A DNA stretch of 64,000 nt from Laetmonice hystrix (taxonomy: Eukaryota): contig OZ249436.1 in NCBI GenBank assembly GCA_965235115.1, positions 21,144,001 through 21,208,000 of the forward strand, read 5' to 3'. The notes beneath the pieces are model-generated. The model had not been told where the DNA came from. It made no database searches and saw only the letters and a list, made by a program, of their open reading frames with translations. Shown here in pieces: positions 5,098 through 61,897 of this stretch; position 1 is the first letter of the stretch, and every line of letters begins with the position of its first letter. The position numbers and the translations under genes are program-made.

Positions 5098-5149
5098 ACA
5101 CGTCTGGGAGGGCAACAAACATCTTATTTGGGTGATCACAGGAACTCCC

Positions 5150-5255
5150 CTTCGTGTTTTATGTGAGAAGGTTTATATTTACTTGCTACAGGGTCAGTGG
5201 TTTTGCCCGGGTACCCAGGTATCCCAACTGACCACCTCGAAATGACCATAGCAGC
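5150..5255 (+). mobile_element. Degenerate SINE remnant (Meta/V-type conserved core)
   Basis: ggtcagtggttttgcccgggtacccaggtatcc...aactgaccacc resembles the GGTTTTCTCCGGGTACTCCGGTTTCC core of aquatic-invertebrate SINEs. Confidence 0.5.
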
Positions 5256-27187: not shown

Positions 27188-29103
27188 TGTGTACTTCCTA
27201 AGTATCCATGGATAAATGGGCACCAAATCCTCCTGTTACATATCAGAGTTTTTTACTGCCCTAATTTCTTCCACCACACTGTTCATGCTGTTGTGACCAT
27301 CCTTCTTGTCTGGACATGATGTATTTTGTGGGTTCTCCAGGCTGATGAAACAAGACACATTTTCTTATAATTTACTTTGCCACTTCATACTTTGCCAATA
27401 CAATGTGGCAAACAGCTACTGGCAGCCAAGAAGAGGGAATTTAATTATACAAACAGTTTGGCTGGTTACGTTGTTGCACCAGGATATATTGCTCATGTGT
27501 AGTGCTCCTGAAGAAATTGACATATTAAAAAAAAACCTTTATAAGAACAACGAATCTTCTTTACAAGGCCACTTACTTGCAGTAAAGTTAAATGGGAGGG
27601 TCTAAAACCACTTGACCAGCATGTACATTGTATATTATGCAAATTAATGTTATAGTACCGGTACTTAGAAACTTATTAAGAGATACTCCCCCTGGCCTCG
27701 GGGGGGGGGGGGGGGCACAGGTGTATGGGTGGATGAATGGATCCATATAGCTACCTGACATGGGCAAGGGTCACTCAGTATAGGGTGACCAGAACCCTGT
27801 TTTTGAAACATTTCGTGGGGGGCCCCCTGTGCCCCCCCCCCCCAAATCCGCCACTGCAGATGTGATCAATGTAAAATCTTACGACTAGGCCCAGTTTTAG
27901 AAAGATACTTGCTTGCTAGGACAACTTGGTACTAAGCCTTTAGTAAAAGCACTTGAAATACAAAAAAAAACTTAAGAATAACTCATACTTAAACTACCGT
28001 AGTTTGGTCAGATAAATCTAATTGGTTGGATCACACAGACCATCAGCTAAGGTGGTAGATCTCACTCACATTCAATGCAGATCTGTCAAAGCCATCGCAA
28101 AATTATTTATTATCAGTAATGCCACCATTGAGGCTCTATCACTGCCACCTTGACCAATTCAAGTTGCCCTGATCAAACCAAATATTACACAAAACAAAAT
28201 TACAGGACTCCTTGATGAAACTACAGGTACCTTTAAAATATGTTTTTTAATCATTAAAATGGGCTAATTAATAAACTTTTATTTACACATGATATAACTT
28301 GCTTTCAAAATTTTTAAATAAGTTATTAATAACTTGTAGAATGTGTGTACTTGTAATTTATATAAACCTCAATAAATAAAGTACATAAACACAGACAACA
28401 TTAAGAGAAAAAATCATTATGCTCATCATTCACATTGCTACAACATTACGGTATCATTTCTCTGTTTATTTCCTTTGCAATATTTTCAGCCTGGACCACT
28501 TTAAACCTAAAGCTACAGGTTTTAACGAACTAGGCTCATATTAGATCAGTTCCCATTCACCTGATTTTGTCATCATTTATCGGCAATGTTATTAAAATTT
28601 ATTTCAAATAGACATCACCATGATTTAGAGCAATGGATCAATGCTGCTTTGATCTCTGTGGCAGACTGAGGACCAAAAATTACTGTTTACTGAAGTGGTT
28701 ATGTCACAAAAGCGCCGAGACGCAATGGACTATCACTCAGTCCAGCATATCCTCTCATGCTTGCACAGTGATGCATGTCGGCAGGCACACGGATGGCTGG
28801 TCCCCACGATAGACAACAAACACGACGAGGAAAATGTCCACCACGGGCACGACACAGCCGCCCTCATCAAGCAATTCTTCATCGGCATTCAAATTATAGA
28901 AATAACCATCTCTACCACAGAAAACCAGTCTAGTATCACCAGAATGTATCACTGAACATTTTCTCATCGTTACCGGCTTCTATTGGGGGATCTATTCCGT
29001 GAAAATTGCCACGGTCGTATCGAACAGGTTTGACAGGCCATGGATGAGTCTCCGAGTCGGGTCTGACTGGAGCTGTCTGCTACCACCTAGACAGATAACT
29101 CAC

Positions 29104-29295
29104 CTGCTACCGGAGATAATTTACGTATGACACACCACCGCGCTTTCCACTGAAAATACAGAAAAAAAACACAATGAGTACAAACAGTACTCCGCTTTCG
29201 ATCCGTACCGATTAATCCGACCTAAAAGCGGTCTGTACCTTCTTTCCATCGCGATGTTTCAGGGACCCCTCTAGCACTATGTTCATGTCAGCCAT
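29104..29295 (-). CDS. DOK7: Dok-7-like adaptor (PH-PTB), first two coding exons only; gene continues beyond the left edge
   Basis: Exon 1 29295-29239 MADMNIVLEGSLKHRDGKK|gtacag; 89-nt intron; exon 2 29149-29104 WKARWCVIRKLSPVA G|gtgagt (46 nt). Closely parallels the DOK7 N-terminus VEGQVKLRDGKK|WKSRWLVLRKPSPVA, including both intron positions. I did not find a convincing exon 3 in 1-29103. Confidence 0.88.
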
Positions 29296-29434
29296 GTTTG
29301 GTCCCTTGTTTGAATCTCTCGCAGTGAATGGCCCGGCGCCATCTCATTGGTTGATAATTCGTCGGGGGGCCTGGATGAGTCGGTGGCCGCTAGATGGTGC
29401 TAGGAGCAGGTGCACGTCTTTCTTGTCCTGGGGA

Positions 29435-29449
29435 AGCAGCAGCTCGCGT

Positions 29450-29480
<31 letters not shown>

Positions 29481-29548
29481 CTGCCAGCAGCAGTAGCGTC
29501 AGCAGAAGCAGCAGCCGCAGCAGAAGCAGCGGGGGCGGCGGCAGCGGC
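29435..29548. repeat. Interrupted (CAG)n/(CTG)n microsatellite upstream of the DOK7-like start
   Basis: ~10 pure AGC units at 29450-29480 with degenerate flanks. Confidence 0.95.
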
Positions 29549-30284
29549 TCGAATCTGATGCAACGGGCTGAGACATGGGCAAGCACCACGGACCTTGCAG
29601 TTGCACTGTGACTGTCTGTGTGGCATGCACATGGTACTCATCGGGCATCGATGACGATAGACTGCATAGATTATTATTTCTAGATCGAGGATCGATCGGG
29701 TCATGTTTTGGCAGTATTGAAGTTTGTTATGGGACTAGTTAGGCTTAGCCAGCCTTAGTCTTAGACAAGTTAGGGCCTATATAATACGCTAGCTGTGTAG
29801 GATATCCAGGTTAGATTACCTAGTACTAGTAGACAGCTGAATCATGGGAACTTTCTTTTGGCCATGGAAAGTGGGGGGGGGGGGGCAAATGAGTGACGAA
29901 GGCGCGAAGCATAGCTGGGGGGGGGGGGGGGTCAGGGGTGCATGGTCCCCAGGAATATTTTGAAATTTCAGGTTATTTTGGGGACTTATATACTATACTA
30001 TAGTGCATTTTAGAACATAGCTGGGGGGGGGGCGTCTGGGGGCATTGCCACAGGAATATTTTGAAATTTCAGGTTATTTTGGGGACCTACATAGGCTAGT
30101 GCATTTTAGAACACAAAGGTATAGCCTATGGCAGAGACGTTAAGTTTTCCTTAGTAAAAAGTGGGGGCCAAAAGATACCCTGCCCCCCACCCCCACATGC
30201 CCCCCACCCCCACCCCTTTGCTACGCCCCTGTATAATGATACTAGGCTAATATAACAGGAAGGTGACAAGAACTGGGGGGGGGG

Positions 30285-30487: not shown

Positions 30488-31298
30488 GGGGGCACACAGT
30501 AGGCCTATCTCGGGCGCGGATCCAGCACTGACGGCTATAAGTGCACTAAGGGAGGGGGGGGGGGCGCTAGAAGATATAGACGTCTATAACTTAGGTACCG
30601 GTACGCCACCGGAATGTAGGTACCGTGCCCATGGCGCCCTCGAGCGCGGAAGGCGCGATACGAACACGCGTGTGGGGTTGGGGGGGGGGGGTGCATTAGG
30701 CCTATTGTTTTCCTTCCACAACCCAAATCCAGCCTAGGACCAAGTTTATAGGTATACGAAAATCATTGGGGAACTTTGATAGACAATTCGTCATTTATCA
30801 GCCAGTTGGCGCCAGGCATACCTGGTCCTGGCTGATTTGAAATATCCCAGAAGCAGTTTGTTACTCGTCCGCCAGGTTGCGTCAGCAATACCCGGGTATG
30901 AATGGCGATCAGCCATTATTGAAGTTTCCCATTGGAACAAACGGGGAAGACGAAATCAATGTTAGATAGGCCTAATCAATTTTATTCATCATTTGACAAG
31001 TTTGACATGGTTGGTGCAGAAAAATTTGTCCAGTCCTATCATGGGGCGGATCCGGGAGTTTGGTGGGGGGGGGGGGATAGGGGGTAAATAGGGGAAGAAT
31101 TTACTTTAGGGGGTACAGCATGGACAATTCAGAAATGTCTATACGGGAAATAGAGAAATCGGTGCCAAAAGGGGGTTAACCCCCCCCCCCTGATTCCCCA
31201 TCCGCCACTGCAAGCATGCCTAGGTAGGGGTATACATTATAGGTAAAATTCGACACGCCGACACGGCCGTAAAATGAAGGGCGACATCTTCTTCTTAA

Positions 31299-31828
31299 AG
31301 GGGCATGCTATGAAACACGTTTTGGAGGATTTCCGGCAATTATCCAAGATGACCGTGTACTAGGGATCCAAGTAAATAATCCTGCCATAGCATTTTGTCC
31401 TCCGACGTGTTTTCGCTGCGTATGCAGCACAAGTAGATTCTATACGACCAAACCTATAGATTTCTCCCGATAGCACATCTCCCGCCATAATTTGCTATAG
31501 ACAACCTCCCATCAACCCGTGTAATTGCATACTGCGTCACATCCTGCGTGTGCACTCTCTGCATGTGCTTAGTCACGTGCTTCGCTTAGTTGTAAACAAT
31601 TCAGCAGTTGCACTCGATCGTCCGGCATCAGAATGCCACCCAAAAGATATTTTACGAAATCAGCAGAAAAGCGGGCAAGGGAGCTTCATAAACTTCGATT
31701 TCTCACACAAAATGTAACTGATCAGTCTGTCTTTGTTTACCAAGCAATATTAATGAAGGATCTCTTTATGAAAACAGCAAAAGTTCTTTGAAATACCGAT
31801 TTTTCACGTTTCCTCATAATATGCCCCT
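31299..31828. mobile_element. Kolobok-like MITE
   Basis: TTAA|AGGGGCATGCTATGA ... TCATAATATGCCCCT|TTAA. Confidence 0.8.
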
Positions 31829-32227
31829 TTAACGACGGACACAGCTCCCAAATGGCTGATAAAATTCGACGTGAGACATCCAGAATTGCAATAAAAATAG
31901 ACATGAGACACATTGATTTACTTAAACACACGATATCGACAATTATTAAATAGCGACGTGCGACGTAGGCCTACCGTAAAAGAGACATAGGCCTATCTGC
32001 CATATCCATCTATATAGGCCTAACGTTACATCTCTTACACTGTTACAGTCTTGTCTTACACTGGAGCCAGTCTCAGTCTTAGTCTTAGACTGGAGCTTAA
32101 ACAGTGACACAAGACATAATTGAATCGTTTTAAAAAGTGACATGGGACATGGACAAATTTCTTATCATGTGACACTGGGACACGGGCATAAAAAACAGGA
32201 CCCATAGGCCCCTAGGTCTATATACCC

Positions 32228-34486: not shown

Positions 34487-36822
34487 TTAAGAATATTTAG
34501 CAACTAATACGTAAAACTATGGACTAGTTTGGGACATGAGATCCTATCCTATACAAGGAGCTTCCTTTCAAACATATCCCATCTGGAGGATATATCTGTC
34601 CCGAGAAATGGACGATTACGCAAGGACGGAAACTGGTGATACGAGAACATCAACCCTGTGGAAGCGAAGAAAAAAAACTCCCAAGTTATCAGCTACACAA
34701 CGGTCACAAGGCCCCTACTGATGGCTGACAAGTTAATCTACATTTCACAATAATAAACCTTCCCAGTGTACCCAAGGCCCAAATATGGAATATTACTGAG
34801 CATAGTAATGTAACCAAAAGTCCTGGGGCCTTATTCACAAAGCAGACCTGCAAACTATTATTATCCAGCTGTTTAATAAATAGGTCTGCAAGTCTTGCGT
34901 GAACAAAGACCCAGGACTCCTGGCAGCGAATCTCATAAAACGGATACACTATCTTAGTTGCGTTAGGTATATAAAACTTTTTGCATAAATTTTGCTTTTG
35001 TCGTGACATCACAATTGGAACAAAGTGGTTTCAGAAGAATATAAATGCTGCCTGTATACTCCCTTATATACTTTAAATGCTGAGCTTCCCTAGATGCGAA
35101 AATATAATATATGATGCGACTGTGATACTAGTGAACATCTGAAAATGGCAATGCTGTACTGATAACATTGTTCCAGCACTGTAATATCACTGTGAGATAA
35201 CAAGATGGTATGAAAATGATGCGATGACAAAAATGACTACTCTGCAGTAATCAACATGCAAAATAATACCATTCCAGATAAACAATTATGGATACCAATT
35301 CCTTTACTTTCACACACCATGCCTACTCAAAATTTCAAATCAAGCTCAGACCCATTTACAGTTCGAGCGTCTAAGTTAAAGACAAAAATGCCATGGTTAC
35401 ATTGGAAATGCTGCAATCTTACCAGTCCTGAGGTAAGAAACCACAAGACAGGGTTGGAAGACAATTATCAAATCCCCCAGATGAAGCAAACAATAGGGTA
35501 CATGAACATTAGGCTTAATAATGTTTAAAATAGATCCATGTGGGGTAACACCATCGAAAATTTTGTATGCATCCCTAATATCGAATTCGTGGATTTAATT
35601 TAAAATAACTAAACTGTAAAACCTTTGATTAGGATCTTGGAACAACCTTTTTTGAGTAAAAGTAAATTTCCAAAATTTAGTTTTTGTTTAAGAGTTCACA
35701 CCTTTCGAACTCAGCAGTCCCTGTTGTAATCATGCACTCAACAAATAGTTTCCAGTAAAATGTGTGGTGTGGTTCCCCAGTCATGCCAGCTGACTGAACC
35801 ACATTTGTCGCAGCAAGAAAAGCTTTCCACCAACATTGGGCTGCCCCATCATTTCCAATATTTTTAGTATAAATTACCGGTATTCCAAAATGTCCTACAA
35901 CAATGTTTATCATCAGCAGTCTTGGAATATTTTGCAGTCAACTGGACATTTTAACAGGACAATCCTCCATTGGTAAGAAGGCAGATTAAAGATTACACAG
36001 TAAGGTAACTAAATCTCTACATCTTACTGAATATATAACTATACACTTCATAACGAGGAAACAACCTAACTTTTCTCCTTCAAGGCAGTTGACAGACTGA
36101 GCAATAACCATATCGCTTCCTTTTGTTCTATAATGTGGGTGTCGATTCAAAAACATGTTTATTGCAATCTTCTTCCTGTACAAATACACAGACTGTAAAT
36201 CTACATTCACAAAGTATATTCCAAAAACTACAGGCTCAGCATCTATGTGATTCGCCAATACATGTACTTCTATTATGTCAAATAAATGAGTACCTGGAAA
36301 GCGATACTTCAATGCAATCCCGACATCACCATAGACACCATACTGAATAATGTATGCAGCTGTGTATAAACTGACGACATCAGCAGATTTGTAGTCTCTA
36401 TAGGATTCAAATATATTGTCTGCTATTGAGGCATTACAACAATCGTTCTTGACATCCTGGCAGTGAAATTCTTAGTGCTTCGAGCAACCACAAAGTTAAT
36501 CTGAGCAGTTCTGCCACACTCTGCATACTAATGAAATTGGTAAATCAAAGTTTCTAACGATACTTAAGATATATATCAAATGTAAATGAACTAAACAAGT
36601 CTGCAAATAAACGGATGGAAAGTTTTGAAGACGTTTCTCATAAATATGAATCAGTATGACGTTGTCCCACACTTGTCTGTGTTCAGGCCACAGACACGCC
36701 ATGCTCTAGAGAACCGACCTGACATCTGGCGATAGCGTTCCAAACCGACGTGGTGAGGATTAAACATAAGGGGGCGCTAACCATAGGCACCGCTGCTGTC
36801 TATAAGTTGACGAAGCCTGGTA

Positions 36823-36956
36823 TCAGTTTTGGAGACCGTAACGTTGTTTGTAGCGTTGTTTGTCACGCTCCACCTCCTCCTTACGCTTCATAATGGCTGC
36901 ATTCTGTTCCTGAATGCGGCGGATACGAGCATTCAGCTCGTCCTCATCAGCGCCTC
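36823..36956 (-). CDS. Uncharacterised gene last exon, coiled coil (GADEDELNARIRRIQEQNAAIMKRKEEVERDKQRYKQRYGLQN*)
   Basis: gttcttgaag| acceptor, phase 1, TGA at 36825-36823. Not in the ORF track because it is under 60 aa. Confidence 0.87.
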
Positions 36957-39900
36957 CTTCAAGAACATGGAATGTTCAGTTAAAAAAATTATGTGATGCT
37001 GATATTAGCTATGGTGTTAACACACAACTCATGCTAGGTTTAAGTTAAAAAGGTTGTTAGAAAAGTTGTCTCATCTGTTTATTAATATAAATGTATTATC
37101 TCTCAAAGAAACAGTCTTTGAAACAGAAAAAATATACATTATTTATACGGCCTGCAAAACTTTCTATATTACAGTCCCACCGAAGGATTGCATGCACTGC
37201 TATCAAATAAAAGATAAAAACCAAACTGATTTCAAGAAACATGTTAATTACAGATTTCCACATAATAATAGTATTGGAAAAAATGAAACAGGAGCTCCAG
37301 TGCATGTTAGTACATACCCAGTGTTTTTCTCATCTTGCTGCCTTTGGACGGTCCATCTCCTTCACCTTGAATTTCTGAACGTTCCCGCTTCCTTGGGTTG
37401 CTGGAAACCTTCCTGTCCAGATCCTTCTCTGAAGCCCCTGACGAGCCTCTCTCACTCCGACTGACTTCTATGGGTGTCCTAGATGACCACACTCCAAACC
37501 TCCTCTCCAAGCTCTTCCCACTCGTACTTTCCCCTTTCTTCTCTGCCTCACAGTCGCCTGCTGCCGCCTCCCTTGGTTGACTGCGATTCGACCACACATT
37601 ACGCCTCTTCTCGAGACCTTTACTCCTCACCTCACCAAGTCTTTCCTTCACAGTCTCTCTGCCAACTTCAGGCGGAGATTTGGAGCAAACGCCCAGGCGT
37701 TTCTCAATGTTTGATTTGACAGACTTTCCAGGACTTTTATCTAGTGTTTCCCCATCATCATGATCACTGCCATCACCTAGCATTTCTCGGCTTGACCACA
37801 CAGCGAGTCTCTTTGCAGTCCCTCTGTCCTTTTTGTTCAATTTCTCCTGGACGTCTGCAGTAGCATCCTTATGTGGAGACCAAATTCCAAGACGCTTTGT
37901 CACACTCTTTCTTGGCTTCTGCTCCGAATCACTCAGGTGGGGCTCCGGCGAGGTACCAGCTATGACCCTTCGGTGCACTTGGACCTGATCTCGTTTTAAT
38001 CTCTCAGATGAGGAACGTTTGACTGGCATGCCAAGACGTTGATGGACAGAAACTCGGCTCTTCATCTTGCTTTGATCCATCAGTGGGTCTGGGTGACAAA
38101 AGACATTTAAAGTGATACATTATAAAACGAAGAAGGGTTGTGTCAGGTATGACGAAGACTCGTTTTAGAGAAGTTACAGAGGCTCAGAATGTTCACAAGA
38201 TTGCACCAGATTACACCCTTTTTTCCAAAAACCCCTCCTGCACCCTCCTTTTCAAAAAACCCCTCCTGCATCTTCCCTGTGCCGGGATCACATAGCACTA
38301 ACGGGCAGTTACCCCCATGCTGAGATTTTGTTCTAGCTAAAACACTGGTACCATTGTAGCTATTTTAAGAATAATTAATATACCAACCTTCATTGAATGT
38401 GATGTTGATTGTGGGACTGTGACTGCGTTTTTCATCCTCATCCATTTTCCCACTATCTTCTTCACCCTGACTTTCACCCTCCTTTTTGTGTTTCCGCTTC
38501 AACTGGGCAATAACCTCCCGTGCATCTTGACTGTCTGTTGCTGTATTTTTAATGACCACACGAGATGTTAGAGATCCGGGGCCATCTTGATGCCTTGACT
38601 TTGACCTTGTATGTGTGGCTCTGTTCTGCCGCTCCTCACCTGAATGGGATTTAGACTGGGGCAGATGGGAGGACGAACTTTCTGGCCTTCTTCTAGAGGT
38701 AGAAGACACACCTTCCTGCAATTTCACTACACTCGTGATGGACTTCACCCTCTTTTTGGAGGTATTTTCTTCACTATCAGTGTCAGTGCTACTCTGTGGT
38801 TCTTTTCTGTGTATTCTAGAGCTTGAATAATCAGTTTGTTCCCTGGAACTACCACGTGAACTTGCTGCCTCTCTCGAATGGCCACCCACCTCCTGAGACC
38901 GGTGTTGTTCTCCCTTTTCCTTCGAACCGACACGGTCATCTATTGTCTCCCTAGATCTGCTACGTTGTTCTTTTGTTGCTCTAGAACTGCTCTGCTGGTC
39001 TCTTGATGATCTAGACCTGCTAGGTGCTACATTTTCTCTAGTACTGCCATGCTCTTCTACCCTTTCTCTTGTATTGCCTCGTTGGTCTGTCTTCTCTCTC
39101 GAACTGCTCCGATGGCCAACCTGCTGCTTTGACCTGTTTTTCTCTATTTTCTCTTTAGATAAACTATCCCCCTTCTCTTTTGGGTCCAATTGCTCTCTAG
39201 AACTGGCATAGTACTCTGCCCTTTTAGAATTGCTAGAGCGGGCTGTTAGTTCTTTAGGCACAGCCTCAACCGAGTCTGTTTGCCCTTTGCTAGTTTTCAC
39301 TTCCTGATTGTTTTTTGCCTTTCTCATAATATTTTCCTGAGACCTGGAGGATCTGGACTCTTCCTGCACTTGTTTACTTCTAGATAGATTTCCTACTGAT
39401 CTAGCACCACCACGTTCCCTGCTTGTGGGAGGCCCTGGCCCCTGATGATTCCTACCCTCTGGCCCACTGTCCCGTAACCTACCACTATCTCGCGACCTCC
39501 CTTGATTAGGTTGATGCCTTCTCGCATCACCCAACCTTTCATTACGTCTCCAGTCTGATCCTTGACGACGATCACTGTAAGCACCATCTCTTGAACGGTG
39601 GGGATCACGACTATCGGTCCTCTGACCACGTCGAACATCGTGAAGCTGGCGACTGGCCTTATGTCTTTCCTCTCCCTCTTTCAGCACGCGCCTACGACGT
39701 TCTCGTTCTATATCATCTCTTGCTCGCTCCTGACCCACAGAATATTTATCTCTCCGTTGTTCTGAGTCAGACTCAGAGTCACTATTACTAAATGAGAGTG
39801 AACTAGAGCTATCCGATTCACTTTCTGAATCACTACTATTACTTGAAGACGATGAACTGTCACTTGACTGAGATGTCCCATTGACCTTGATTGATTGTAT

Positions 39901-42900
39901 CTGGGTACCTCCCGAGGCTGCCGGGGTGGATATAGGTTTTACATTGTCACTTTCACTTTCACTTGGTTTTTGTGTTTCAATCTTTGTGCCTGATTTACCT
40001 GTGTCAACTTCTGAACCTTTATCCGTCGCAGCCAACCTGCTGCTTTCTACTGCAGCTTTCTCCGAGTTGGCACTACTTTCTAATTTTGAGTCTACTCTTT
40101 TCCCTAATCTGTCTTTTATACTCAATTTTGGCTGGACGTCACATTTAGTGGACTTAGACTCTAATTTTACTGTGGATCTAGAGAGTAAGTCCATAGGCTT
40201 AGAGTCTGTAGGTTTAGGGCTAGTATCCGACACAGTATTAGTAGACTTTAGTTGGGGCACAGTTTCATTACATCCAGAAGACACTTTTCCTGTTGACTTT
40301 TCCTGAGGAGGAACCCGTTGGGGTTGGCTTGGTTGGCACGGTACAGAATGTTCAGGAGATGCTGGTCTTGGTGGAGTGCAAGCTGGGGGAGGGACTCGAG
40401 TGTAATCTGGCTTGGCCATTGCAGTCACACTAACTGTCTCCACAGCCTCAGTCCCCACATCTGCTTTCTCCATCTCAACTTGGCTTGTCTCAGCCTCATT
40501 ATTGACTGAAACTGGTTCTGTGGGGGTTGGATTCTCTCCAGGGGAAGGAGATGTGGGAGATGGCAGATCGGAAGATGTCTTTTCAACATCTTTGTCTTCT
40601 AGATTTGTACTTGTGTTTTCGGTTTTGTCTTCATTTTCATCCGAGTTGTTCCCAGACTCTTCAGCGGAGGAGATAGAAGAACTGCTGTCTGATTTAGTAC
40701 TTTCACTGTCAGAGTCACGGTCACTTTCCTCATCGCTCGAATCAGACTCAAATCGACTGAATCTTGCTGGCACTGTTATGAAGGAAGAGATGAAGATGTT
40801 TGTGTGAAAATATAAAAATTTATAGTAAATATTGCATAACTTAGCATTATAGGAATCCTGTCAATTTTTGTAGAAAAGCATACTTATTAGGTTTATGGAT
40901 TCTTCAATAATTCTGTTTTAGGATGACATAGTTCTACTGCATTTAGATATCAACTCCACAACAAAATTACATGTAAATGATATCCACCCGAGTTATATAA
41001 AGTTTACAACTCTTCATTATTCTGTTCTTACCTTTTGGTTTTTCAGGTTTAGATACTGTTTTCTCTAGTCTGAAAGAACTGGCCCACTTGTCTTGAGGCA
41101 TAACTAAACTTGTCTTGACGACATTTGCTGGCTCTGTAGTCTGTATCACAATCAAATTACTCGGCCTGTTCTGTCCCGGAAACTGTGGACGCCCAGACCC
41201 TTTGGTAAAGTTACGCTGTGCTCTGTAAGGTTGTCGGTGTGGAGAGCCCTGCCTTGGTACTGTTAACTCACGCAGTGGTGAATTCCTTGGACCAATATTA
41301 TGTACTGTCTCTTTTAAAGGAACTTCTAGTTGTACTGGAGAAACCTGCAAAACATAAACTCTAGCAATGTTAAAGTGATCGAAAACAACACTGAACCTCT
41401 CAAACGTAATATTGGAAAGAAAACTATTTTTTCATTAAACCACGTTACGTACTACATGGTGTACATCTAATGTTGACAATTTTCCTATATTTCCCCCAGA
41501 CGCATTCAACATCAAGCAGAAATGCTATCAAAGATAATACCTGCCTTTAGGTGAGAAAAGAACGATAATCTAGACACAGATGGGGGTGTCACGAGTGACC
41601 GGGAACTAATAAAAGTTAGAATGCTCAGGACTAGTATAGTCAAATGATATCATTCAGGTTGGACAGAACCAGTTTAGGCTTCTAAAAGTGCACGCACTCT
41701 GATCCCTTTTTAAAATAAACCAAAAAATATCTGACTAAATGTCCCGGTACATTTGAACATGGAATGTTCCAACCTGAATGTTACTATGCTTGACTCTCGG
41801 TTCATGTGAAGGTTTTTTTCAATTCCCGCTGGAGCTCCACCACAGGTTTCTAAAAATTACTAATTTATTATTTAAGACATACCTATATTGGATGTATATA
41901 CCCACAGACTGAATTTAACCTGTAAATTATTATGTAAATCCATTTATTTTAAGCCCTTCACGTCCAGTCAGTGAAACAAAACTTGAATATGAGCTTACAT
42001 GTATAGGTTTCTCTCCCGATGGTTGCTTCTTTGTCTTCAGCGCTGCTAATCGCAGAGCTTCCAGATCACAATCTTCTTCCGTTTTCTTCGAGAGAGGCAC
42101 TGGTGGAGCTTTCTGAAAAAACAAATGTGTGTGAGCCTAAGTTGTTTTTATAATCTCTTTTATTGTTACAAGGATAATATAATATGCGTTCACCAGGATT
42201 TGTGCAATTTTTCTGTGTATTTACACATAATATGAAACTGGCAGTTCCGGGACACAAAATTCAAATGTATTACTGCACCTTTTACTTTCCACTGAAGACC
42301 TCCTAAACTTCCGGAAGTTTTTACACAGCACAGGGCTCGAAATACTTTTAAAATTTTGATTCGCAATAATTAATAGAGTTATTTGGTTTGTAGAAGCAGT
42401 AATACTAATTATTAATAGGCAATATTTTGCGACTCATCTTTTAATTTGATTTGCAATAGACTGATTTTGGCATGCAAATTGCGATGTGAATCTGGTTAAT
42501 TCAAGCCCTGCAGCAAAACTTACTGTTTTCATAGAAGCCAGGACAGCATTTCGTAGCGCTGCTAAATCTTCTTCCTGCACATACACAAAGAAATAATACT
42601 TCATCTGATCCTGTTTATCAGCACTATGAACTGTAAAATTGCACAAAGTAACTAAGCCTTGGGTCTTGAGTAAACGCCATCCAAGTCAAAGGGTCAGCTG
42701 GCTGTCCTATTGACTTCTTTCCTGACATTCATTAGATAGTGCATTATTGCTGTGCCAACATTAGGCTACCGCCCCTTCCTTTTGAACTGAAATGAGCTTA
42801 GGACCATTCAGTAGCTCACGTACATCATTTTAAAGTCTCAGTGATACCTTTTGGGCAACAACTTGGAGATGCGGAGGATGACCTCCCCCCACTGTCCAAT

Positions 42901-45900
42901 TTGGAAATGAGGAAGCAAAGTCATGCCTTGGGAAGTTATGCCTTCCTGTGCATAGAGCATCAGCTGTGGTGGTCAGAATTAAAACTAATATTTTAAGGAT
43001 CAAATACTTAAAGAATGCTAAGCTCGTTCACAAAACTCTTATAATATCGCCAATAGCTGTCCTCTACGTCTTGCTGATCTGGGATGACCATCACCCCCAG
43101 AGGAGTCACAAAACTCTATAGCGGCGATGGCCATCCCGGATCAGTTATTTCGGTTTCGGTTATGCAAACAAAATTGAACTACGAGTTACGCAAGCCAATA
43201 TACGAGAACGGTTTTTGTCAGACATCATCCAATAAGAATCCAGTATTGCAGTCACATGACCCATCCATACGCAGGCAGAATAACTACTGCCTTTTTTTAA
43301 ACAAATATGTATTCTTGGATGCCGACACCCAGACGTGGGCTAACATCCAGCACGCACGCCAGCAGGTGCCGTGGCACCACGGCCAGTTCTCACACCTAGC
43401 CGGCCACACAGCAAGCACTAACTGCTAAGCCTGGCGACCAGGCGATGGTCATAGGGTACATATCAACTGAGTGGGTGGCACATTCCGACTATCCCTCGGT
43501 TCATTCCGACTAGGGGTACATTCTTGCAGCGGTACACTCCAGGGATCGAAATTGGCACCTCCTAACCTGGGGCAAATTTTAGCCCCTTGGTATATGGGAA
43601 AAGGATGGGACCAGGGGCTATTCTCCAGGACCTGGGCCACATGGGGCAGATAACAATGTGCAGGTTCTTGTGGTAAGAACTGAGTGTCTTGAAACAGGAA
43701 GGGACCTGGCGATATTTATAGTGTCAGACACTAGCTGAAAATAGAGGGGCCAGGGGCTTTTTACTGGGGACCATGCGCTAATAGCGCCGAGGCGCCAGGT
43801 TATTTCCATCCCTGACACTCTGAAACCTAGCCTCTAACATAGGCCGTGTGTATACACGGCCTATCCTCTAGCGATCGGGCTACGAGACCAAACGTTCAAC
43901 CCGCAAAATGAATGCGCGTCCGCACCTCTTCCATCACTTCAAATAAAAGATTGCCTTTACCTTCAGCTACTGAGCCCAATGAACTTACTTGGTGTTCCTC
44001 TAAGCAACAGATTCGGCCAATTTTCCAAACCAAGCGACCACTTTCCATAGTCTTACAACCGACGCCATTTCTGTAAATTCACATCCGGGGTCAAGCTCAC
44101 GAAGGGAGCGACCATTTCAGACGTTGGCTATTAGTTTGGCGCCATAATGGAGGAATTGCTCTTTGGTCTAGAATAATGAATGCTCCCCTGCTGGTCGCCA
44201 GTGCACATGTTTTGAACATGCGCAGTAGAACAAACAGTATGGTGGCTAACGGCAGTGAACCAGCGCGATTCGGAATTTCGAAAGTCTGGTTTATTAAAAC
44301 TTTGGGCAAAAATCCTCGGAAAAGTGTGCAGCAGAGGAACAGAAGATGGGCTGCGTTAGAATTGACACCTCAACTGGCAGTAGTTACGATGGATTTTGGA
44401 CAGCGAGTGATTAACATAGGAGGTAGGGTTTTTCGCGTTAACGCTGTCCGTCCCTATACACTGGGGGGACGATACTCCGTCTATCTGAAACCACATAGCT
44501 CTTCACAGAGTGTCCCAAGAATCGCTGGGCATGGAGAACTCGACAACTAAACGGTGTTCTGGAAGACACCGTCAGGGTTCTCGCCAGAAATTTTTGACAG
44601 CGTAGTGGTCAAACCAAGCGCAGAGCCCTGGTTAGGGGTACAGGGTAGGCCGCCCTACAAATGAGTACGATTTCGACATGTTCGAACGACATTTTACCAG
44701 TATTCCTGTGGGTTCTGTTGAATTTAGACAAGGCTTTACCGCTCCGCTGTTCAAGAGACAACGTAACGGCCTAATAGACAGCGTAATTTCCCTGATAGAC
44801 AGCGTAGCGGCCCGCTACGCTGAAAATGGCTGGCGAGAACCCTGACCGTTCATTACATTTAGAAACTGGGGTGCGTTTCACGAATGAAAGACATCTTTAG
44901 CAAAGAGTCAAAGACGTCTTTAGCAAAGAGTCAAAGACGTCCTTGGAAAGACATCTTTGCAGGGCCAATGTTAAAGAATAGGTGGTTAGTGAAACACCCG
45001 TCGCCCCAAAGACCTCTTTGGCTCAGCGACCATTTCAAAGACATCTTTCGGGCTTAGTGAAACGCACCCCTTAACTACTCCCATTCCATGCTGTGTGGGT
45101 GGCCTGGCCTGGCCCTGGTTTTTAGTTTGCAAACCAAGCTCCTGGCTCCTAAAGACAAATCTGTGCGAGTTTTGTCCGTCACTGTCGTTATGTGTATGTA
45201 CCCTTGAGACACCTGGGGTGCGTTACACAACAGGCTGTCATGCGTAAAATAGTCGTAAACTGTCAACTTATGACAGAAGTGTTTCACAACCCCTGTCGTG
45301 TATTAAAACCTGTACGACGGTGTCGTAAACCAAGGCCAAAATAAAGACATCTCTGACCCTGTAGTTAAGCTGTGCCGTAACGAAAATTAATCAATCCATT
45401 TATCTGGCATGTAATTACTGATGTTTTCGGCTCCATATGGCCTCTTTTAAGAATTGCACGGCCAAAAATCTCTAAAAAGCAAGGCGGATCGCTGAACCCG
45501 TCCGAATCGCGCAATGGTCGCACAACGTTGCACGACTTGTCGCACAACAGTCTCATGGTCGCAGGACACATTTTCCAGGATGCATGACTGATCGCCATTT
45601 GTAGCTAGCACTCGTGCGACTGTTGCATGACCTCCGGCTGATCATGCGCGATCTTTCAGTCACACATGATCGCACACGGTCGTGCGATGGATCGTACGAT
45701 GATGGATCGCACGACCGTCTGCAACGGTCGTGCGACGGTCGTGCAACAGACTGTGATAATTTTGGTTGCACCAAGTCGCCTCTGAATTTTTGACATGTCA
45801 AAAACCCAGCCGCGACCGGTTAGATGCGCTTGCAGCCCTGCAACTGGGACGATCGCTCGCCCGACACCATGCGAGTGGTCGTGCAACAGAAGCGATTTTC

Positions 45901-48122
45901 TGTTGCAGGTGGTCGGGAACTGGTCGTGCAACAATTGTGAAAGGGGCTTAAAAACCGGACCCTGGGAGCGGACAACAGTCGACCATAATCGGCAACCACG
46001 CACACTCGACACTGTCCCGATTTTGGTCAACTGCCGTTGAGCCGCTTGGACTTGGTTCCCGATTCGTTTTTCGAATCAGTTATGATTTGCTCCAACTGTA
46101 GTCGGGAGCCATCGGGAGCAGTCGGGAACAAAGTTACCGACTCGAGTTAGGCAAAATCGGGAAGGTGTATGGCAGGCTTTAGGCCTACTCAACTAGGCCT
46201 ATTATAATATACTACCGCATGTGCCATGTGTATACTCAACACAGACTCACTGTCAACCGGTCACCTGTCTTCAGACAGTTACAGTATTTTTCTTTTGAAA
46301 TGCACGGGCATCAGGGGTAACCCAATTACTTTGACAATGTCCCTAAAGAGAAAAGTTGTATAGTCCTCTACAGGAATCGAACCCCGGCCCCAAGATTATG
46401 TGAGTAGGGTGTGCGTCCATTTCGGCCGCCTGCCGGTTCGGCCGCCCATATACTGATATAGTTAGGGTGGTGTAGGCCTGGTACCGTGGTATCCAGAGGA
46501 GTCTGCTACGCGAGGAGTGTGCTACGGTATTTTCAGAGGAGTGTGCTACGCCACCTCTGCCGGGTCGGGCAAGGTTTTGGGGCGGCGTGGTGGGAGTGGG
46601 CGGCCGCGGACTGGAGCCGGGGCCGACGGGTCTGGAGGGGAGGGTGGTGCCGGAGTGGAGCCGTGACCGGCGGGCGGCGCGGTGTGGAACCGACGGGTCT
46701 GGAGGGGGGGGGGGGTGCGGGCCGACGGGTCTGGAGGGGAGGGTGGCGCCGTGACCATCGTCACCTCGGCTGCCGAACGTGTCACTGAGTGGCAGCCCGA
46801 TGGCCGGCAGTGCTCTGAGAGGGACGGCGGCGTCACGGTTCGCCCCGCGGGAGGGAAGGCTGCCGCTGGCACACACTCATTTTGAACTCGCGATTTTTCA
46901 TAAACTACGCTACGCATCGTTATCACTATCAGACTTAGAGTAGTCGAGGGTCTACAACATAGAAATGTTCATGCTAGTGTAAAGTTCGAGTAAATAGCAC
47001 CCCTCCTTATACGCGTGTTAACGGGCACAGGGTCCGGGGAGGGGCCGCGGCGGCCCGGCTGAGTCGCGCATAGCACAGAACGAGTAGCACACTCCTCGCG
47101 TAGCAGACTCCTCTGGCAACCGGTACCGTAGGCCTATAGCTATACACTACAGGATCTGGCCGCCAACAAAACGGCTGCCAACTCTATTATTTTTATTCCG
47201 TTCTCTTTCTCTCTCTCTCTCTCTCTTATGTACTCGACCAGGGCTTAGGCAGTTAAAATTTGGCCTACGGTCAGTGTTCCCGCCGGTGTCGCGGTCTCAG
47301 ATCTCCGTGGTCTCAGATCTCCGAGAGGTTAGCTGCATCGCTGTGTGTTCTAGTCTAACTATCCGAAATATCAGCTCTCAGTTGAGTCACACGTAATAAC
47401 TCTCATCTCCTCTACGATACTTGGTTTACAGTTTACCTATCCAGACTCTCCTTTAGTCTTGTTTAGAAGAAAACTCCACCACCCATCAGGTAGCAGACGA
47501 CCGGAGGTGTGAGCCCAAACAGCGACTCGCGCATGCTCACTTAGTCAGATTCAGCATCTAAACAATAGGAAACCATGCCCCCGGAGTTCTGAGACCAACG
47601 GAGATCTGAGACCGCGACACCGGCCCGATCGTCCGGGTAGCATCGTCCGTAGGCGTAGGTTATTGCCTCTCGCAGTCTCGGCGGCCGTTTGCTGGCGGCC
47701 GGATCCTGCTCAGCTGTGCCACCATTACTTAGCATTAGGGTTAGGGTCAGGGTTGGTTTAGGGTTAGTACAGACAGTGTGAGTGACCAATAGCACCGCGG
47801 CGGCGACCCGTGGCAAAGCTTGTCATACGGGCGGCCGAACCGGCAGGCGGCCGAAACGACTGGCGAGCGTGAGTAGACAGACAACTACTCACAGTCACAG
47901 TAACGAAGTAGTCAAGACTCAAGCTCAAGTCAAGGACAAGGAACATACGTTCGCTTTTCAAGAATATATTCGGTAGTGATGCAAATACGACATTTCTACT
48001 ACATGAAGATATATTCAGTGTTTCAGAGTAGACTCTAAATATCAAAAACAATTCTTAAACATGAACAAATCCTGTTTTAAACATCGCTGTTCAAAAAGAT
48101 CCCCTACCTCGTCGTCCGCCAT
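36823..48122 (-). CDS. Uncharacterised ~1260-aa Ser/Arg/Glu/Lys-rich, largely disordered protein with RLG repeats and a C-terminal coiled coil (probable nuclear RNA-processing factor)
   Basis: Minus-strand join 48122-48108, 42574-42524, 42112-41999, 41344-41032, 40772-38388, 38088-37318, 36956-36823 = 3783 nt, all GT-AG, phases 0,0,0,1,1,1, single terminal TGA. Includes the 802-aa and 257-aa ORFs of the track. Confidence 0.85.
37318..38088 (-). CDS. Uncharacterised gene exon with ~7 xxRLG(V/I)WS-type repeats
   Basis: ttttgtcacccag|...KTL G|gtatgt; 771 nt, phase 1-1. Confidence 0.9.
38388..40772 (-). CDS. Uncharacterised gene, giant 2385-nt exon (acidic/Ser-rich then RS/RE/RD-rich)
   Basis: Open for 795 codons; acceptor cataacag, donor G|GTTGGT; phase 1-1. 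Confidence 0.93.
41032..41344 (-). CDS. Uncharacterised gene exon (contains SNLIVI, LVMPQDKW)
   Basis: ttttgcag|...KPEKPK G|gtaaga; 313 nt, phase 0 to 1. Confidence 0.87.
41999..42112 (-). CDS. Uncharacterised gene exon (KAPP...EEDCDLEALRLAALKTKK...IH)
   Basis: tttttcag|...|gtaagc; 114 nt. Confidence 0.88.
42524..42574 (-). CDS. Uncharacterised gene exon (EEDLAALRNAVLASMKT)
   Basis: gtgcag|...|gtaagt; 51 nt, phase 0-0. Confidence 0.85.
44057..44068 (-). CDS. Candidate alternative first coding exon B (MASV)
   Basis: aaATGGCGTCGGTT|GTAAGA, phase 0; ETS-like CCGGATGT, NRF1-like ACTGCGCATG and a CTCF-like motif lie just upstream. Confidence 0.45.
44573..44844. mobile_element. hAT-type MITE with 5-bp TSD
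   Basis: ACCGT|CAGGGTTCTCGCCAG ... CTGGCGAGAACCCTG|ACCGT. Confidence 0.88.
44868..45070. mobile_element. Harbinger-like MITE
   Basis: TIR GGGGTGCGTTTCAC / GTGAAACGCACCCC; internal AAAGAC(A/G)TCTTT repeats. Confidence 0.82.
45365..46180. mobile_element. Probable truncated non-autonomous DNA transposon(s) with GGTCGTGC/GCACGA subterminal repeats
   Basis: CpG-rich with many TCGTGC(A/G)A motifs; right end ...GTGTATGGCAGGCT|TTA is Harbinger-like; a matching left TIR was not found. Confidence 0.5.
46488..47121. mobile_element. Merlin-like MITE with 8-bp TSD
   Basis: GGTACCGT|GGTATCCAGAGGAGTCTGCTACGCGAGGAGTGTGCTAC ... GTAGCACACTCCTCGCGTAGCAGACTCCTCTGGCAACC|GGTACCGT; GG termini; GC-rich interior. 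Confidence 0.8.
47283..47623. mobile_element. Unclassified MITE, CCGG termini, 4-bp TSD
   Basis: CCCG|CCGGTGTCGCGGTCTCAGATCTCCGT ... ACGGAGATCTGAGACCGCGACACCGG|CCCG. Confidence 0.85.
48108..48122 (-). CDS. Candidate first coding exon A (MADDE) of the uncharacterised gene
   Basis: acaATGGCGGACGACGAG|GTAGGG, phase 0, giving MADDE-EEDLAALR; lies in CpG-rich promoter-like DNA. Confidence 0.65.
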
Positions 48123-49199
48123 TGTGTATTTGCGGAGTGCGCGTGCTCGAACCTTAAACTCTGCCGGACTTCGGTGCGGTTTCGGCGGGGTGTTTAGTTT
48201 TTTTTATGTTTTTTTCTTCGTCTCTCTTGTTTCTTTATTGTGTCAGTTGCGTATTAAAATGAACAAACGCTTTACTTTTCCAAAATCTCCAAGATCGCTC
48301 TGTTTTGGGGCTTGGAGGGGTTGTCGTGAAAGCATCTGGCCAAAGCATCTACAACAAACTAACCGATCAACATTATTTTTTTGATTCATTGGATGCCTAA
48401 CATTTCCATATGGGCAAGGGCTAGGCCTACAGTTTTCTATAGACAGAGCGTGATAGAGATAGAAGGCCACTTCCTCTTTTTTTAGCGAGGGGAGGGAGTA
48501 TACAATTAAGAAAAGAACTAGCCTACTAACATAATAGATAGCCTAGGCATAGCCATAGATAGATCTGTACTGAGAGAGTCTATGGCTGCATAGTCTACTA
48601 TCATCTACTGATCTAGATCGATTCTATGCATGGTTTACCATGAATTATAAACCACAGTGTCCTCAGGCATAGACCTGTAATGGGTCTCTTCACAGCATGA
48701 TCCATGATTATGACTATGTTAGCCTATAACAAATTATAAAGATCATTCAGTGAGAGTTTACATTTCTCCAGTAGTAACGTTAATTAGGCCCTATGCTATG
48801 TCTATGACGTGGTCAATGGGTGTACCCCTATACACTGAAATTTGGTCGAACGTAAAGAGCCATAGCTCTGCCTTTATTCCTAACCCTTAATCCCGGTCCC
48901 TACTCCTCCCAATTAACATATATCCGGATTCCCTATCCTATCCCGTAACCGAACCCCTTCCCCAAAAATGTTGTGGGGAAGTTAGCCTAACATTAGATCT
49001 ATCATGGGCGGCATGGCCATGCGCATGGCCAATGATGCCGTCAATGATTTCGATATTCAGTAGCAGAGCAGATCCAGAGTGGGGTTGGATATTAGCCCCC
49101 CCCCCCAACCATTTTTCTGAAATCTTGTGAAGAGTTTTAAAATACAATGTATATGGTGGCCAAAAACGGGGCACGTCATGTGAAGGTCAGGACTACTCC

Positions 49200-49300
49200 A
49201 TCGATTGGTAGGGCACCTGCTTCGCGCACCTGATTGGTCCAAGGTTTTGGGGGCCATATTTGAATCAGAGAAGAACACACGGATTTTAAACAAGTCAGGT
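49200..49300 (+). promoter_or_regulatory. MELK promoter: two inverted CCAAT boxes, E2F-like site and CDE/CHR element; probable non-coding exon 1 ending at 49298
   Basis: ATTGG at 49204 and 49233, TTCGCGC at 49221, GGGGGC-cata-TTTGAA (CHR 49259-49264), donor CAG|GTAGGC at 49299 (a second possible donor GTAAGC at 49549). Confidence 0.65.
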
Positions 49301-50509
49301 AGGCTAACTCCTCGGGTTTCTTCACAATATTTAGAAACCAGACGCAGCAAACTTTTAATAATAACGCGTCCTTATCACAAAGAGCTTCACCTTATGCGTG
49401 TCATTTCGGTTAGTTCCTGACAACTAGACCGGAGGCTAGCGTGAAACTTTGGCCAGGCCTAGATCTAAGTTGGGCCGCTTTACGCCCTCGGCGAGACGGT
49501 CAGTGGCAGCGGGTCAGCGGCAGTGCTGCCAGGGTCAGCGGCGGCAGAGTAAGCCTGTCGGGGCGAGGGACCGCCACCTCTGCACTCCGTCCAATTAACA
49601 ACCAAATTATTTGATCAAGACTAATCTTTTTTAGGCCTTTTTGAGTATGTCTCTTTACTACTTTAGTCTAGCCTCTACTAGTAGTCGTTACTAGTCTACC
49701 CTGTCTCTAACACAGCAACAGTCTCTATACAGACACTAAGTTACGTTAGACTAGTCTTCACATTTCTCATGAGTCACTCATGACATGATGCTCATGCTGG
49801 CACACACTGTGACACAGTCTCACTCTTAGTCCAGTCTCAGGCACTCACTGAGTGCCTGAGACTGTAAGAGTCAGACTCGGTCAGTGTCACTGTGGTCCCA
49901 TCACTGTAGTGTCGCTGTCACTAGTAGTACTAGTAGTGTCAGACTCACTGAATCAGTTCATCAACGTCACACTGTATCACTTGCTGACAGTGGGTTTGAA
50001 CTGCAGCCGGAATCTTGGGCTTCATACAAATCCTTTATTTTAAAGGAATTTCCTTTAAATTCCTTTATTTTTATGAAAACCTTGAAAATTCCTTTATTTT
50101 TGTGAAAAATTCCTTTATATTTTTTTAGGGTACGGTAGCAAAAATGTTTGAACCTCATAAAATAACCCGTCATATCCTAAAATGCACAAAATTCCAACAT
50201 TTTGAAACACTAAATCGTAAAATTTTCCAGCAGCTGCACTTGCAAAATATCATCATTTTTATCACCGAAAATTGCACCAAATATTGCTTTAGTCACCAAA
50301 TTTACTTGTCTAATCAATCATAGCCAAGCCCAAGGCAAAGGCTATACCGTGCATTGAAATTGAAAACATAAGTTCGCCTTGGCTTTAAGTTTAACTTTGT
50401 TATTTGGTGAAGTAAGGTAACAACTAACATGTCGTTAGAGAGAAAGTACAGTATCTGGTGATATGATATGAGGAGTCTGATTTTAATTTAATAATCGTCA
50501 TGCTGAATT

Positions 50510-50999: not shown

Positions 51000-61897
<10,898 letters not shown>

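What the first reader, a model, noticed from the sequence alone, without database searches (positions are those of the whole stretch)
36823..48122. Unnamed ~1260-aa disordered protein built from a set of short motifs typical of nuclear RNA-processing factors
Seen: a phase-consistent 7-exon CDS with no recognisable globular domain. It carries two N-terminal helices (EEDLAALRNAVLASMK, DLEALRLAALKTKK), isolated hydrophobic words (SNLIVI, LVMPQDKW, RFSRFESDSS, TINITF), long Ser/acidic and RS/RE/RD tracts, RLG repeats and a C-terminal helix DELNARIRRIQEQNAAIMKRKEEVERDK. From recall: that last helix resembles the N-terminal ELDKRIEALRRKNEALIRRYQEIEEDRK helix of the EJC-associated protein CCDC9, here at the opposite end, and LRxxAL helices occur in ZFC3H1. 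Inference: an uncharacterised invertebrate scaffold linking mRNP/EJC and nuclear RNA-decay or export factors. This is the best candidate for an undescribed system in the window.
Basis: partly seen in the sequence, partly recalled or inferred. Interest (0 to 1): 0.7.

Follow-up and report, generated by a model that had tools for sequence, protein, structure and literature searches.

The report
Ancient unnamed disordered motif-scaffold protein
The gene is real and belongs to an undescribed family of long, unfolded animal proteins found in corals, abalone and a priapulid worm; the family keeps a fixed string of short docking motifs resembling those of human mRNA-packaging helpers, so it may be an overlooked adaptor of that machinery, though no binding partner has been shown.

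Summary
Observation confirmed. The minus-strand gene has 7 exons with GT-AG introns and encodes 1260 aa. One junction is seen spliced in a run that behaves like cDNA. It is not an orphan. Three abalone proteins (956-963 aa, named only by composition) keep all eight named motifs in the same order and share an intron position. Coral, Priapulus and an unnamed animal contig keep subsets, always with the same C-terminal helix. No Pfam domain was found and the AlphaFold model is 86% disordered. Best reading: a nuclear short-motif scaffold on the mRNP packaging/export (TREX-ERH) side. (1) Its conserved strand (I-N-I-T-F; abalone L-S-V-T-V) resembles the CIZ1 strand that binds ERH. (2) The C-terminal helix gives a weak lead to CCDC9B. 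(3) hu.MAP 2.0 places CCDC9B and C19orf47 in one TREX complex. No interaction was shown; every partner is inferred. It fails membership tests for CCDC9/9B, ZFC3H1, NCBP3, SRRM1 and SARNP. No vertebrate or insect orthologue appeared, but the searches were too weak to exclude one.

The parts
48108..48122 (-). Exon 1 (coding part): start codon, aa 1-5
   Evidence: GT donor, phase 0; abalone orthologues start alike; single-copy depth; no spliced read seen
42524..42574 (-). Exon 2: N-terminal helix 1 (L-x-A-L-R-x-x-x-L), aa 6-22
   Evidence: conserved in abalone aa 10; helix 3-22 in the abalone model
41999..42112 (-). Exon 3: N-terminal helix 2 at 42067-42026, aa 23-60
   Evidence: abalone aa 35; 10 of 11 residues identical to coral P0007 aa 49-59
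41032..41344 (-). Exon 4: N-L-I-V-I strand (41161-41144) and P-Q-D-K-W motif (41107-41084), aa 61-164
   Evidence: both motifs in abalone at aa 196 and 235; the phase-1 intron after this exon lies at the same place in abalone (inferred from P0012/P0013)
38388..40772 (-). Exon 5 (2385 nt): F-S-R-F motif plus acidic/Ser tract (40764-40735), first RLG (40122-40102), Ser tract, basic R/S/E/D region, R-V-V-I strand (38565-38548), I-N-I-T-F strand (38412-38395; candidate ERH-binding strand)
   Evidence: open frame of 831 codons; motif places; abalone, coral and Priapulus matches; an X4 contig ends at the donor 38388
37318..38088 (-). Exon 6: S-V-H-Q-R-L-G (38050-38030) and five further RLG-type repeats (37906-37493), expanded in this species
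   Evidence: one copy in abalone and Priapulus, 16-20 aa after the strand
36823..36956 (-). Exon 7: C-terminal helix (36942-36859) and stop codon
   Evidence: intron 6 seen spliced in run X4; single helix 2-39, pLDDT 91; invariant L7 R10 I11 I14 N18 R24 E27 in 7 rows
36062..36822 (-). Probable 3' untranslated region (end not defined; AATAAA at 36163, ATTAAA at 35599)
   Evidence: an X4 contig covers 36062-36900; signals; contigs cannot show an RNA end
42575..48107 (.). Intron 1 (5.5 kb), mostly high-copy repeats
   Evidence: summed depth up to 263,000 against about 55 in single-copy parts; no Rfam match in 35000-50000

Best explanation
Shown: a real, intact, spliced gene for a 1260-aa intrinsically disordered protein. 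It belongs to an unnamed animal family older than the coral/bilaterian split. The family keeps a fixed, ordered set of short motifs while the linkers drift. Inferred: the protein is a nuclear multivalent adaptor that works like human C19orf47 and CCDC9B on the mRNP packaging/export (TREX) side. Proposed steps, all inferred: (a) the basic R/S/E/D region and the S-V-x-x-R-L-G repeats hold it on nuclear RNA or in speckle-type condensates; (b) the conserved hydrophobic-x-hydrophobic-T-hydrophobic strand adds onto ERH as a beta-strand, as CIZ1 and SAFB2 do; (c) the C-terminal helix is the module also found at the start of CCDC9/CCDC9B and docks on a still unknown mRNP protein, since its invariant R, N, R and E point to a specific partner and not a plain coiled coil; (d) the two N-terminal L-x-A-L-R helices and the N-L-I-V-I, P-Q-D-K-W and F-S-R-F words are further docking sites with unknown partners. 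Odds: gene and family 0.95; nuclear RNA-processing role about 0.7; ERH binding through the strand about 0.5.
For: Orthology: a profile of the C-helix found coral P0007 (E 1e-18) and abalone P0008/P0009 (E 2e-8, 6e-8), 3 of 8000 scored candidates. Abalone keeps all eight motifs in order; pairwise BLASTP gives three colinear blocks, E 2e-9, 6e-5, 7e-5; one intron has the same place and phase (inferred from genomic-type ORFs). Priapulus P0006 keeps N-R-I-V-I, F-S-I-T-L, S-V-H-E-R-L-G and the helix in order. 11 of 256 metagenome matches are relatives: 10 coral-like, 1 other animal-like. Disorder: 826 of 956 residues of the abalone model have pLDDT <50; only the end helices are confident; no Pfam family at cut-off. 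[quoted passage not shown] The strand sits 20, 17 and 16 aa before S-V-H-x-R-L-G in window, abalone and Priapulus. CCDC9 link: Atlas lead 0.77 to C15orf52.
Against: No partner, localisation or phenotype is shown. The strand pattern alone is not rare (shuffle P 0.04-0.15 per protein), and the ERH paper itself says there is no fixed consensus. Solved ERH ligands SAFB2 and CIZ1 form a beta-hairpin with a key Arg (PMC13288104, passages). Here the R-x-V/I strand is not enriched and lies about 30-55 aa from the Thr strand, against about 13 in SAFB2. In coral the Thr strand is at aa 253, far from the R-L motif at aa 655, so the cassette is not universal. The Atlas scores are under 0.9, which a third of shuffled proteins reach or beat (0.8 or more). 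The full UAP56-binding consensus is met in 0 of 9 sequences tested. Coral lacks P-Q-D-K-W, F-S-R-F and one N-helix; its orthology rests on two helices plus weak words. That C19orf47 carries RLG repeats is recalled, not from a call.
Confidence: 0.55

Rival explanations
1. It is a decay-side scaffold: the two N-terminal helices and the strands act like the disordered arm of ZFC3H1 (PAXT) and connect RNPs to MTR4 and the exosome.
For: ZFC3H1, LENG8 and ZC3H18 use isolated helices and short strands in disordered regions in just this way (PMC12873606, PMC13391367, PMC13322074, passages). L-R-x-x-A-L helices in ZFC3H1 are recalled, not from a call.
Against: No ARS2-binding motif in any member. No zinc finger or helical repeats. 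The ZC3H18-binding helices have L-x6-I-x3-L spacing, whereas the C-helix has an invariant Asn at the third place. The Red1-Iss10 interface uses Phe/Val residues absent from the N-helices.
Confidence: 0.13
2. It is a diverged or rearranged orthologue of a known gene (CCDC9/CCDC9B, C19orf47, NCBP3 or another), so its function is already partly known.
For: Helix resemblance to CCDC9B (lead only). No vertebrate or insect proteome could be searched exhaustively: two word-based searches were empty (0 of 26 and 0 of 37 candidates), the third scored only 8000 candidates, and a 43-aa query reaches E 0.001 only near 50-60% identity.
Against: No Pfam family in the window exons or in full-length abalone and coral proteins. 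The helix ends the protein in every member. NCBI names all members by composition only. All named hits were non-chordate.
Confidence: 0.12
3. It is an SR-related speckle or chromatin scaffold (SRRM/SON/SAFB-like) acting in splicing or transcription and not in mRNP export; ERH, if bound, would tie it to that role.
For: Ser-rich, acidic and mixed-charge tracts with 52 RS/SR dipeptides. ERH also binds SAFB2, CIZ1, DGCR8, THRAP3 and BCLAF1, so an ERH strand does not name the pathway.
Against: No PWI, RRM, SAP or G-patch domain; no long pure RS run; the closest leads (CCDC9B, C19orf47) are TREX-linked.
Confidence: 0.17
4. The 7-exon model is an artefact: exons of different genes, or a wrong first exon, were joined.
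For: Only junction 6 is listed as spliced; exon 1 is 15 nt and lies 5.5 kb away.
Against: Single abalone proteins carry the motifs of exons 1 to 7 in the same order. Among the listed variants, 18 exonic substitutions give no stop, and the one exonic indel is 3 nt while four intronic ones are 1, 2, 4 and 7 nt.
Confidence: 0.03

Closest known systems
CCDC9 / CCDC9B (C15orf52)
   Same: Largely disordered, RNA-associated proteins (CCDC9 with the EJC; CCDC9B in a TREX complex).
   Different: The helix is at the C-terminus here and N-terminal in CCDC9 (recalled). No DUF4594 match. About twice as long. N-terminal helices and RLG repeats.
C19orf47
   Same: Uncharacterised protein without known domains, in speckles and close to TREX factors (bioRxiv 10.1101/2024.07.03.601239, passages); predicted ERH binder by a Val/Thr-rich strand; S-V-x-x-R-L-G repeats (recalled).
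   Different: No sequence match was shown. C19orf47's N-terminal helical domain (recalled) is absent here. The terminal helices are this family's own.
ERH ligands CIZ1 and SAFB2 (beta-strand addition, PDB 7X39)
   Same: Strand pattern: CIZ1 S-L-K-V-T-I-L, SAFB2 I583-S584-V585; abalone S-L-S-V-T-V, window T-I-N-I-T-F, coral D-I-S-I-T-I, Priapulus F-S-I-T-L.
   Different: Those ligands form a tight hairpin with an Arg strand; here the Arg strand is 30-55 aa away. CIZ1 and SAFB2 have folded nucleic-acid-binding domains.
ZFC3H1 / Red1 (PAXT/MTREC scaffold)
   Same: Long disordered arm carrying single helices and strands as docking sites.
   Different: No ARS2 motif, zinc finger, MTR4-binding domain or C-terminal helical repeats.
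SARNP and NCBP3 (UAP56-clamping motif)
   Same: K/R-x-x-x-R-x-x-[RK]-F, short of the final Gly, occurs in the window protein (aa 164-172) and in a predicted helix of abalone (aa 507-515).
   Different: The two sites are not homologous. The window site has a Pro, and abalone's matching site has Lys at the invariant Arg. Coral has none. No SAP or RRM-like domain.

Membership tests
CCDC9/CCDC9B | DUF4594 domain (PF15266; accession and its place in the library recalled) | tested here: not met
   no Pfam family at cut-off in 6 window exon frames or in P0007-P0009
CCDC9/CCDC9B | Conserved helix at the N-terminus | tested here: inconclusive
   a similar helix exists but ends the protein; Atlas 0.77, 164 shared features, lead only; no CCDC9 sequence came from any call for a direct alignment
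CCDC9/CCDC9B | Association with EJC or TREX | not testable with these tools
   needs AP-MS
ZFC3H1/Red1 | N-terminal ARS2-binding E-[ED]-G-E-[IL] motif | tested here: not met
   0 matches in 9 sequences (motif from PMC9402713)
ZFC3H1/Red1 | C3H1 zinc finger/MTR4-binding domain and C-terminal helical repeats | tested here: not met
   no Pfam hit; no folded domain in the model; feature list from PMC12873606
NCBP3 | RRM-like domain plus ARS2 motif and UAP56-clamping motif | tested here: not met
SRRM1-type SR-related proteins | PWI domain (recalled) | tested here: not met
   no Pfam hit
SARNP / UAP56-clamping proteins | K-x-x-x-R-x-x-[RK]-F-G with invariant R5 and F9, in a helix | tested here: inconclusive
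   full consensus 0 of 9; without G10: window and 2 abalone proteins, at non-homologous sites; coral none (consensus)
ERH beta-strand ligands | Val/Thr-rich strand in a disordered context | tested here: met
   one copy each in window, abalone, coral and Priapulus; same place relative to S-V-H-x-R-L-G in three of the four lineages; the class has no fixed consensus
ERH beta-strand ligands | Second strand with an Arg forming a tight hairpin (SAFB2, CIZ1) | tested here: inconclusive
   R-x-V/I strands present but not enriched and 30-55 aa away (feature)
ERH beta-strand ligands | Physical or predicted binding to ERH | not testable with these tools
   no ERH sequence was available from any call
C19orf47 | Sequence homology (N-terminal domain, repeats; recalled) | not tested
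   no C19orf47 sequence came from a call; Pfam scans gave no family

The most novel reading that the evidence does not exclude
This is an ancient animal mRNP adaptor, present from corals to lophotrochozoans and priapulids and lost in the usual model organisms. It joins in one chain an ERH-binding strand, RLG repeats, a pair of L-x-A-L-R helices and the CCDC9-type helix, modules that vertebrates spread over CCDC9, CCDC9B and C19orf47. The helix would then be an undescribed portable docking module for a TREX/EJC surface, and its invariant residues would point to the unknown binding partner of human CCDC9/CCDC9B.
Probability: 0.25. Interest if true: 0.72.

Novelty: new variant of a known kind. 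Interest (0 to 1): 0.47.

Why it matters
Nuclear mRNA packaging and sorting is run largely by short motifs in disordered proteins, and these are known almost only from human and yeast. A domain-less protein that has kept eight such motifs in order between this animal and abalone, and its end helices back to corals, is a ready list of selected interfaces. At least four of them (the L-x-A-L-R helices, P-Q-D-K-W, S-V-H-x-R-L-G and the C-terminal helix) had no described partner in the papers I searched. If the helix is shared with CCDC9/CCDC9B, the family gives conserved residues to test on two poorly understood human mRNP proteins. The kind of protein is known and no mechanism is shown, which limits the score.

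Tried and rejected
Sequencing-run search: no RNA holder listed. No whole genome is held, so paralogues, ERH and CCDC9 could not be sought in this genome. Word-based homolog searches with exon 7 and exon 4 alone: 0 of 26 and 0 of 37 candidates (weak). Of 6 phmmer hits, 2 were dropped as repeat/coiled-coil noise (P0001, P0002); P0003-P0006 were kept. Pfam: only sub-cut-off coiled-coil matches (INO80F E 0.005, SKA2). PDB sequence searches with the C-helix profiles and an abalone N-terminus: best E 0.16-0.69, nothing meaningful. A PDB search with the strand-plus-RLG cassette was not run, so that comparison stays open. Atlas on the abalone N-terminus: no usable hit. Viral contigs: 0 of 261 pattern matches encode the helix. 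Idea that the N-helices pack on the C-helix: complex prediction gave no answer (score 0.02), no evidence either way. Red1-Iss10 and ZC3H18-type helices as models for the helices: rejected on residue pattern. W-x-H-D, ULM, PP1 R-V-x-F and ARS2 motifs: 0 matches in 9 sequences (the first three patterns recalled). No ERH chain was found for a complex prediction. Other first exons: the best alternatives near 44050 lie in high-copy repeat. A first try at the exon 6 donor (37314) broke the frame and was corrected to 37318. Rfam 35000-50000: none. Papers: 0 name any of six orthologue accessions; 0 for PWI + helix + RBM26/SRRM1 terms; none of 19 listed mRNP-structure papers mentions CCDC9. The library lacks most subscription papers. 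One hit for 'PWI' was a false match. The supplement of PMC12873606 was unreadable. The bioRxiv supplements with the ten ERH motifs (Fig. S11, Table S4) were not seen; they bear directly on the ERH claim.
Full report
1. The observation. The region holds a minus-strand gene with exons 48122-48108, 42574-42524, 42112-41999, 41344-41032, 40772-38388, 38088-37318 and 36956-36823. They join to 3783 nt, 1260 aa plus stop, with six GT-AG introns in phases 0,0,0,1,1,1. R[LF]G occurs 7 times against 0.36 in shuffles, and the L-x-A-L-[RK]-x-x-x-L helix pattern twice against 0.00 (patterns drawn from the sequences, so optimistic). The protein is 16% Ser and 35% charged. It has an acidic stretch near aa 170-300 and a basic R/S/E/D stretch from aa 500 on; there are 52 RS/SR dipeptides but no long pure RS run.

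2. Is it spliced? Four runs hold the stretch, all at most one sample of one study. A contig of run X4 skips the 361 nt of intron 6 with GT-AG ends, and X1-X3 do not show this joint. Two more X4 contigs leave the window at the exon 5 donor and near the exon 4 acceptor, though their joints are not among the 15 of 28 rows shown. An X4 contig also covers 760 nt past the stop. X4's kind is not on record; I read it as cDNA from these joints. Among the 40 of 105 variant rows shown, 18 fall in exons: 6 synonymous, 12 non-synonymous, no stop. The only replacement touching a candidate word is H998Q, next to R-R-V-I, and the one variant in the C-helix is synonymous. The one exonic indel shown is 3 nt, while four intronic ones are 1, 2, 4 and 7 nt. 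That fits an intact gene with loosely constrained linkers. Exon 1 has no read support.

3. Relatives. phmmer with exon 7 against 1.84 billion representatives gave 6 hits at E <= 0.001; 4 share the helix and 2 were dropped as repeat noise. One is Priapulus caudatus XP_014675117.1 (192 aa, perhaps partial). A profile of these found 3 proteins among 8000 scored candidates: coral Oculina patagonica XP_078369683.1 and abalone XP_067671897.1 and XP_046330153.1; a third abalone protein lies in the same cluster. All are named only by composition or as uncharacterised. The abalone proteins keep, in order, helix 1 (aa 10), helix 2 (35), N-L-I-V-I (196), P-Q-D-K-W (235), F-S-R-F plus acidic tract (263), L-S-V-T-V (843), S-V-H-D-R-L-G (860) and the terminal helix (927). 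The window has them at 9, 39, 123, about 143, 168, 953, 973 and 1224. BLASTP finds three colinear blocks, E 2e-9, 6e-5 and 7e-5. Two genomic-type ORFs of the abalone cluster break off and resume just where window intron 4 lies, in the same phase, and again just before the last helix (inferred from translations). Coral keeps one N-helix (10 of 11 identical), I-S-I-T-I, S-V-K-E-R-L and the helix, but not P-Q-D-K-W or F-S-R-F. A metagenome scan gave 11 relatives among 256 matches: 10 are coral-like, and one (L010) is another animal-like sequence with a Ser/acidic tract, R-K-R-K-F, S-L-K-D-R-L-G and the helix as last exon. An earlier unchecked note calls the window's genome probably annelid, which would fit the closeness to abalone. 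No chordate or insect member appeared, but the searches cannot exclude one.

4. Structure. No Pfam family reaches its cut-off in the window exons or in full-length relatives. The abalone model has 826 of 956 residues under pLDDT 50; helices 3-22, 33-50 and 921-955 stand out. Exon 7 folds as one helix, pLDDT 91, with L7, R10, I11, I14, N18, R24 and E27 invariant in 7 rows (some rows are close kin). PDB sequence searches found nothing.

5. How it most likely works. Shown: an old, domain-less protein whose selected parts are short helices and strands, the anatomy of a short-motif scaffold. Inferred: the partners. The best lead is ERH. [quoted passage not shown] SAFB2 uses I583-S584-V585 (PMC13288104, passages). 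Each of four lineages has one such strand, and in window, abalone and Priapulus it lies 16-20 aa before S-V-H-x-R-L-G. Against this: each match alone has shuffle P 0.04-0.15, the class has no fixed consensus, the Arg strand of the SAFB2/CIZ1 hairpin is not close by, and coral separates the two words. The second lead is the C-terminal helix. The Atlas ranks a C15orf52 (CCDC9B) cluster second at 0.77, below the level that counts. C19orf47 is a speckle protein near TREX factors (10.1101/2024.07.03.601239, passages). A near-match to the UAP56-clamping motif (consensus from PMC10508174 and PMC12823420, passages) occurs in window and abalone, but at different sites, without the final Gly and not in coral, so I give it little weight. 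Taken together I favour an adaptor on the mRNP packaging/export side (0.55). Rivals: an SR-type speckle or chromatin scaffold (0.17), a PAXT-like decay scaffold (0.13), a hidden orthologue of a known gene (0.12), or an artefact (0.03).

6. Comparison with what is known. It works like C19orf47/CCDC9B by analogy, but fails or cannot pass membership tests. There is no DUF4594, zinc finger, PWI, RRM or SAP domain (family features partly recalled) and no ARS2 motif. Its helices do not fit Red1-Iss10 (PMC9402713, passages) or the ZC3H18-binding helices of ZFC3H1/ZCCHC8 (PMC12873606, passages). PMC13391367, PMC13322074 and PMC10605862 were read as passages and show only that single helices and strands in disordered regions are the usual currency of these complexes.

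7. Novelty and verdict. No paper in the library names any of six orthologue accessions, and the CCDC9 searches (listings, with passages of the papers named above) showed no account of the helix. The library misses most subscription journals. The family appears undescribed, but the kind of protein is familiar and no interaction is shown. Verdict: a real gene of a new family, a new variant of a known kind, interest 0.47. It would rise to about 0.7 if the helix proves to be a module shared with CCDC9/CCDC9B and the ERH and TREX contacts hold.

Noticed in passing
window 55357-60904 (+): Exons of a protein kinase (Pfam Pkinase E 3e-13 and 4e-12); the sequence looks like MELK (recalled). A possible non-coding first exon near 49500-49550 would make it head-to-head with the studied gene, about 1.4 kb apart (inference).
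   Followed up: partly
window 29100-29313 (-): Two small exons that read like the start of a DOK7-type PH domain (name recalled, not tested with Pfam).
   Followed up: no
window 42972-48108: Intron 1 is packed with high-copy repeats (summed depth up to 263,000), with many contig joints and short tandem units, suggesting nested small mobile elements. The same repeat words recur near 31200-32000.
   Followed up: no
window 37493-38050 (-), exon 6: The R-L-G word is expanded to six spaced copies, several followed by V/I-W-S; abalone and Priapulus have one. A lineage-specific gain in valency.
   Followed up: partly
P0008 aa 507-535; L010 173-919: Abalone and L010 share a helical R-K-R-K-F word followed by K-K-T/V-I/S-S/V-L/K, close to the UAP56-clamping core; the window protein and coral lack it. 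Motif turnover within the family.
   Followed up: partly
P0005 (83 aa), L003-L009: Coral members carry a degenerate partial duplicate of the C-terminal helix start about 45 aa upstream of the helix.
   Followed up: no
window 4088-5245: Tandem repeats of about 90-100 nt with open frames on both strands; probably a minisatellite.
   Followed up: no
window 29390-29560: A GCA/CAG triplet-rich stretch just upstream of the DOK7-like start codon.
   Followed up: no
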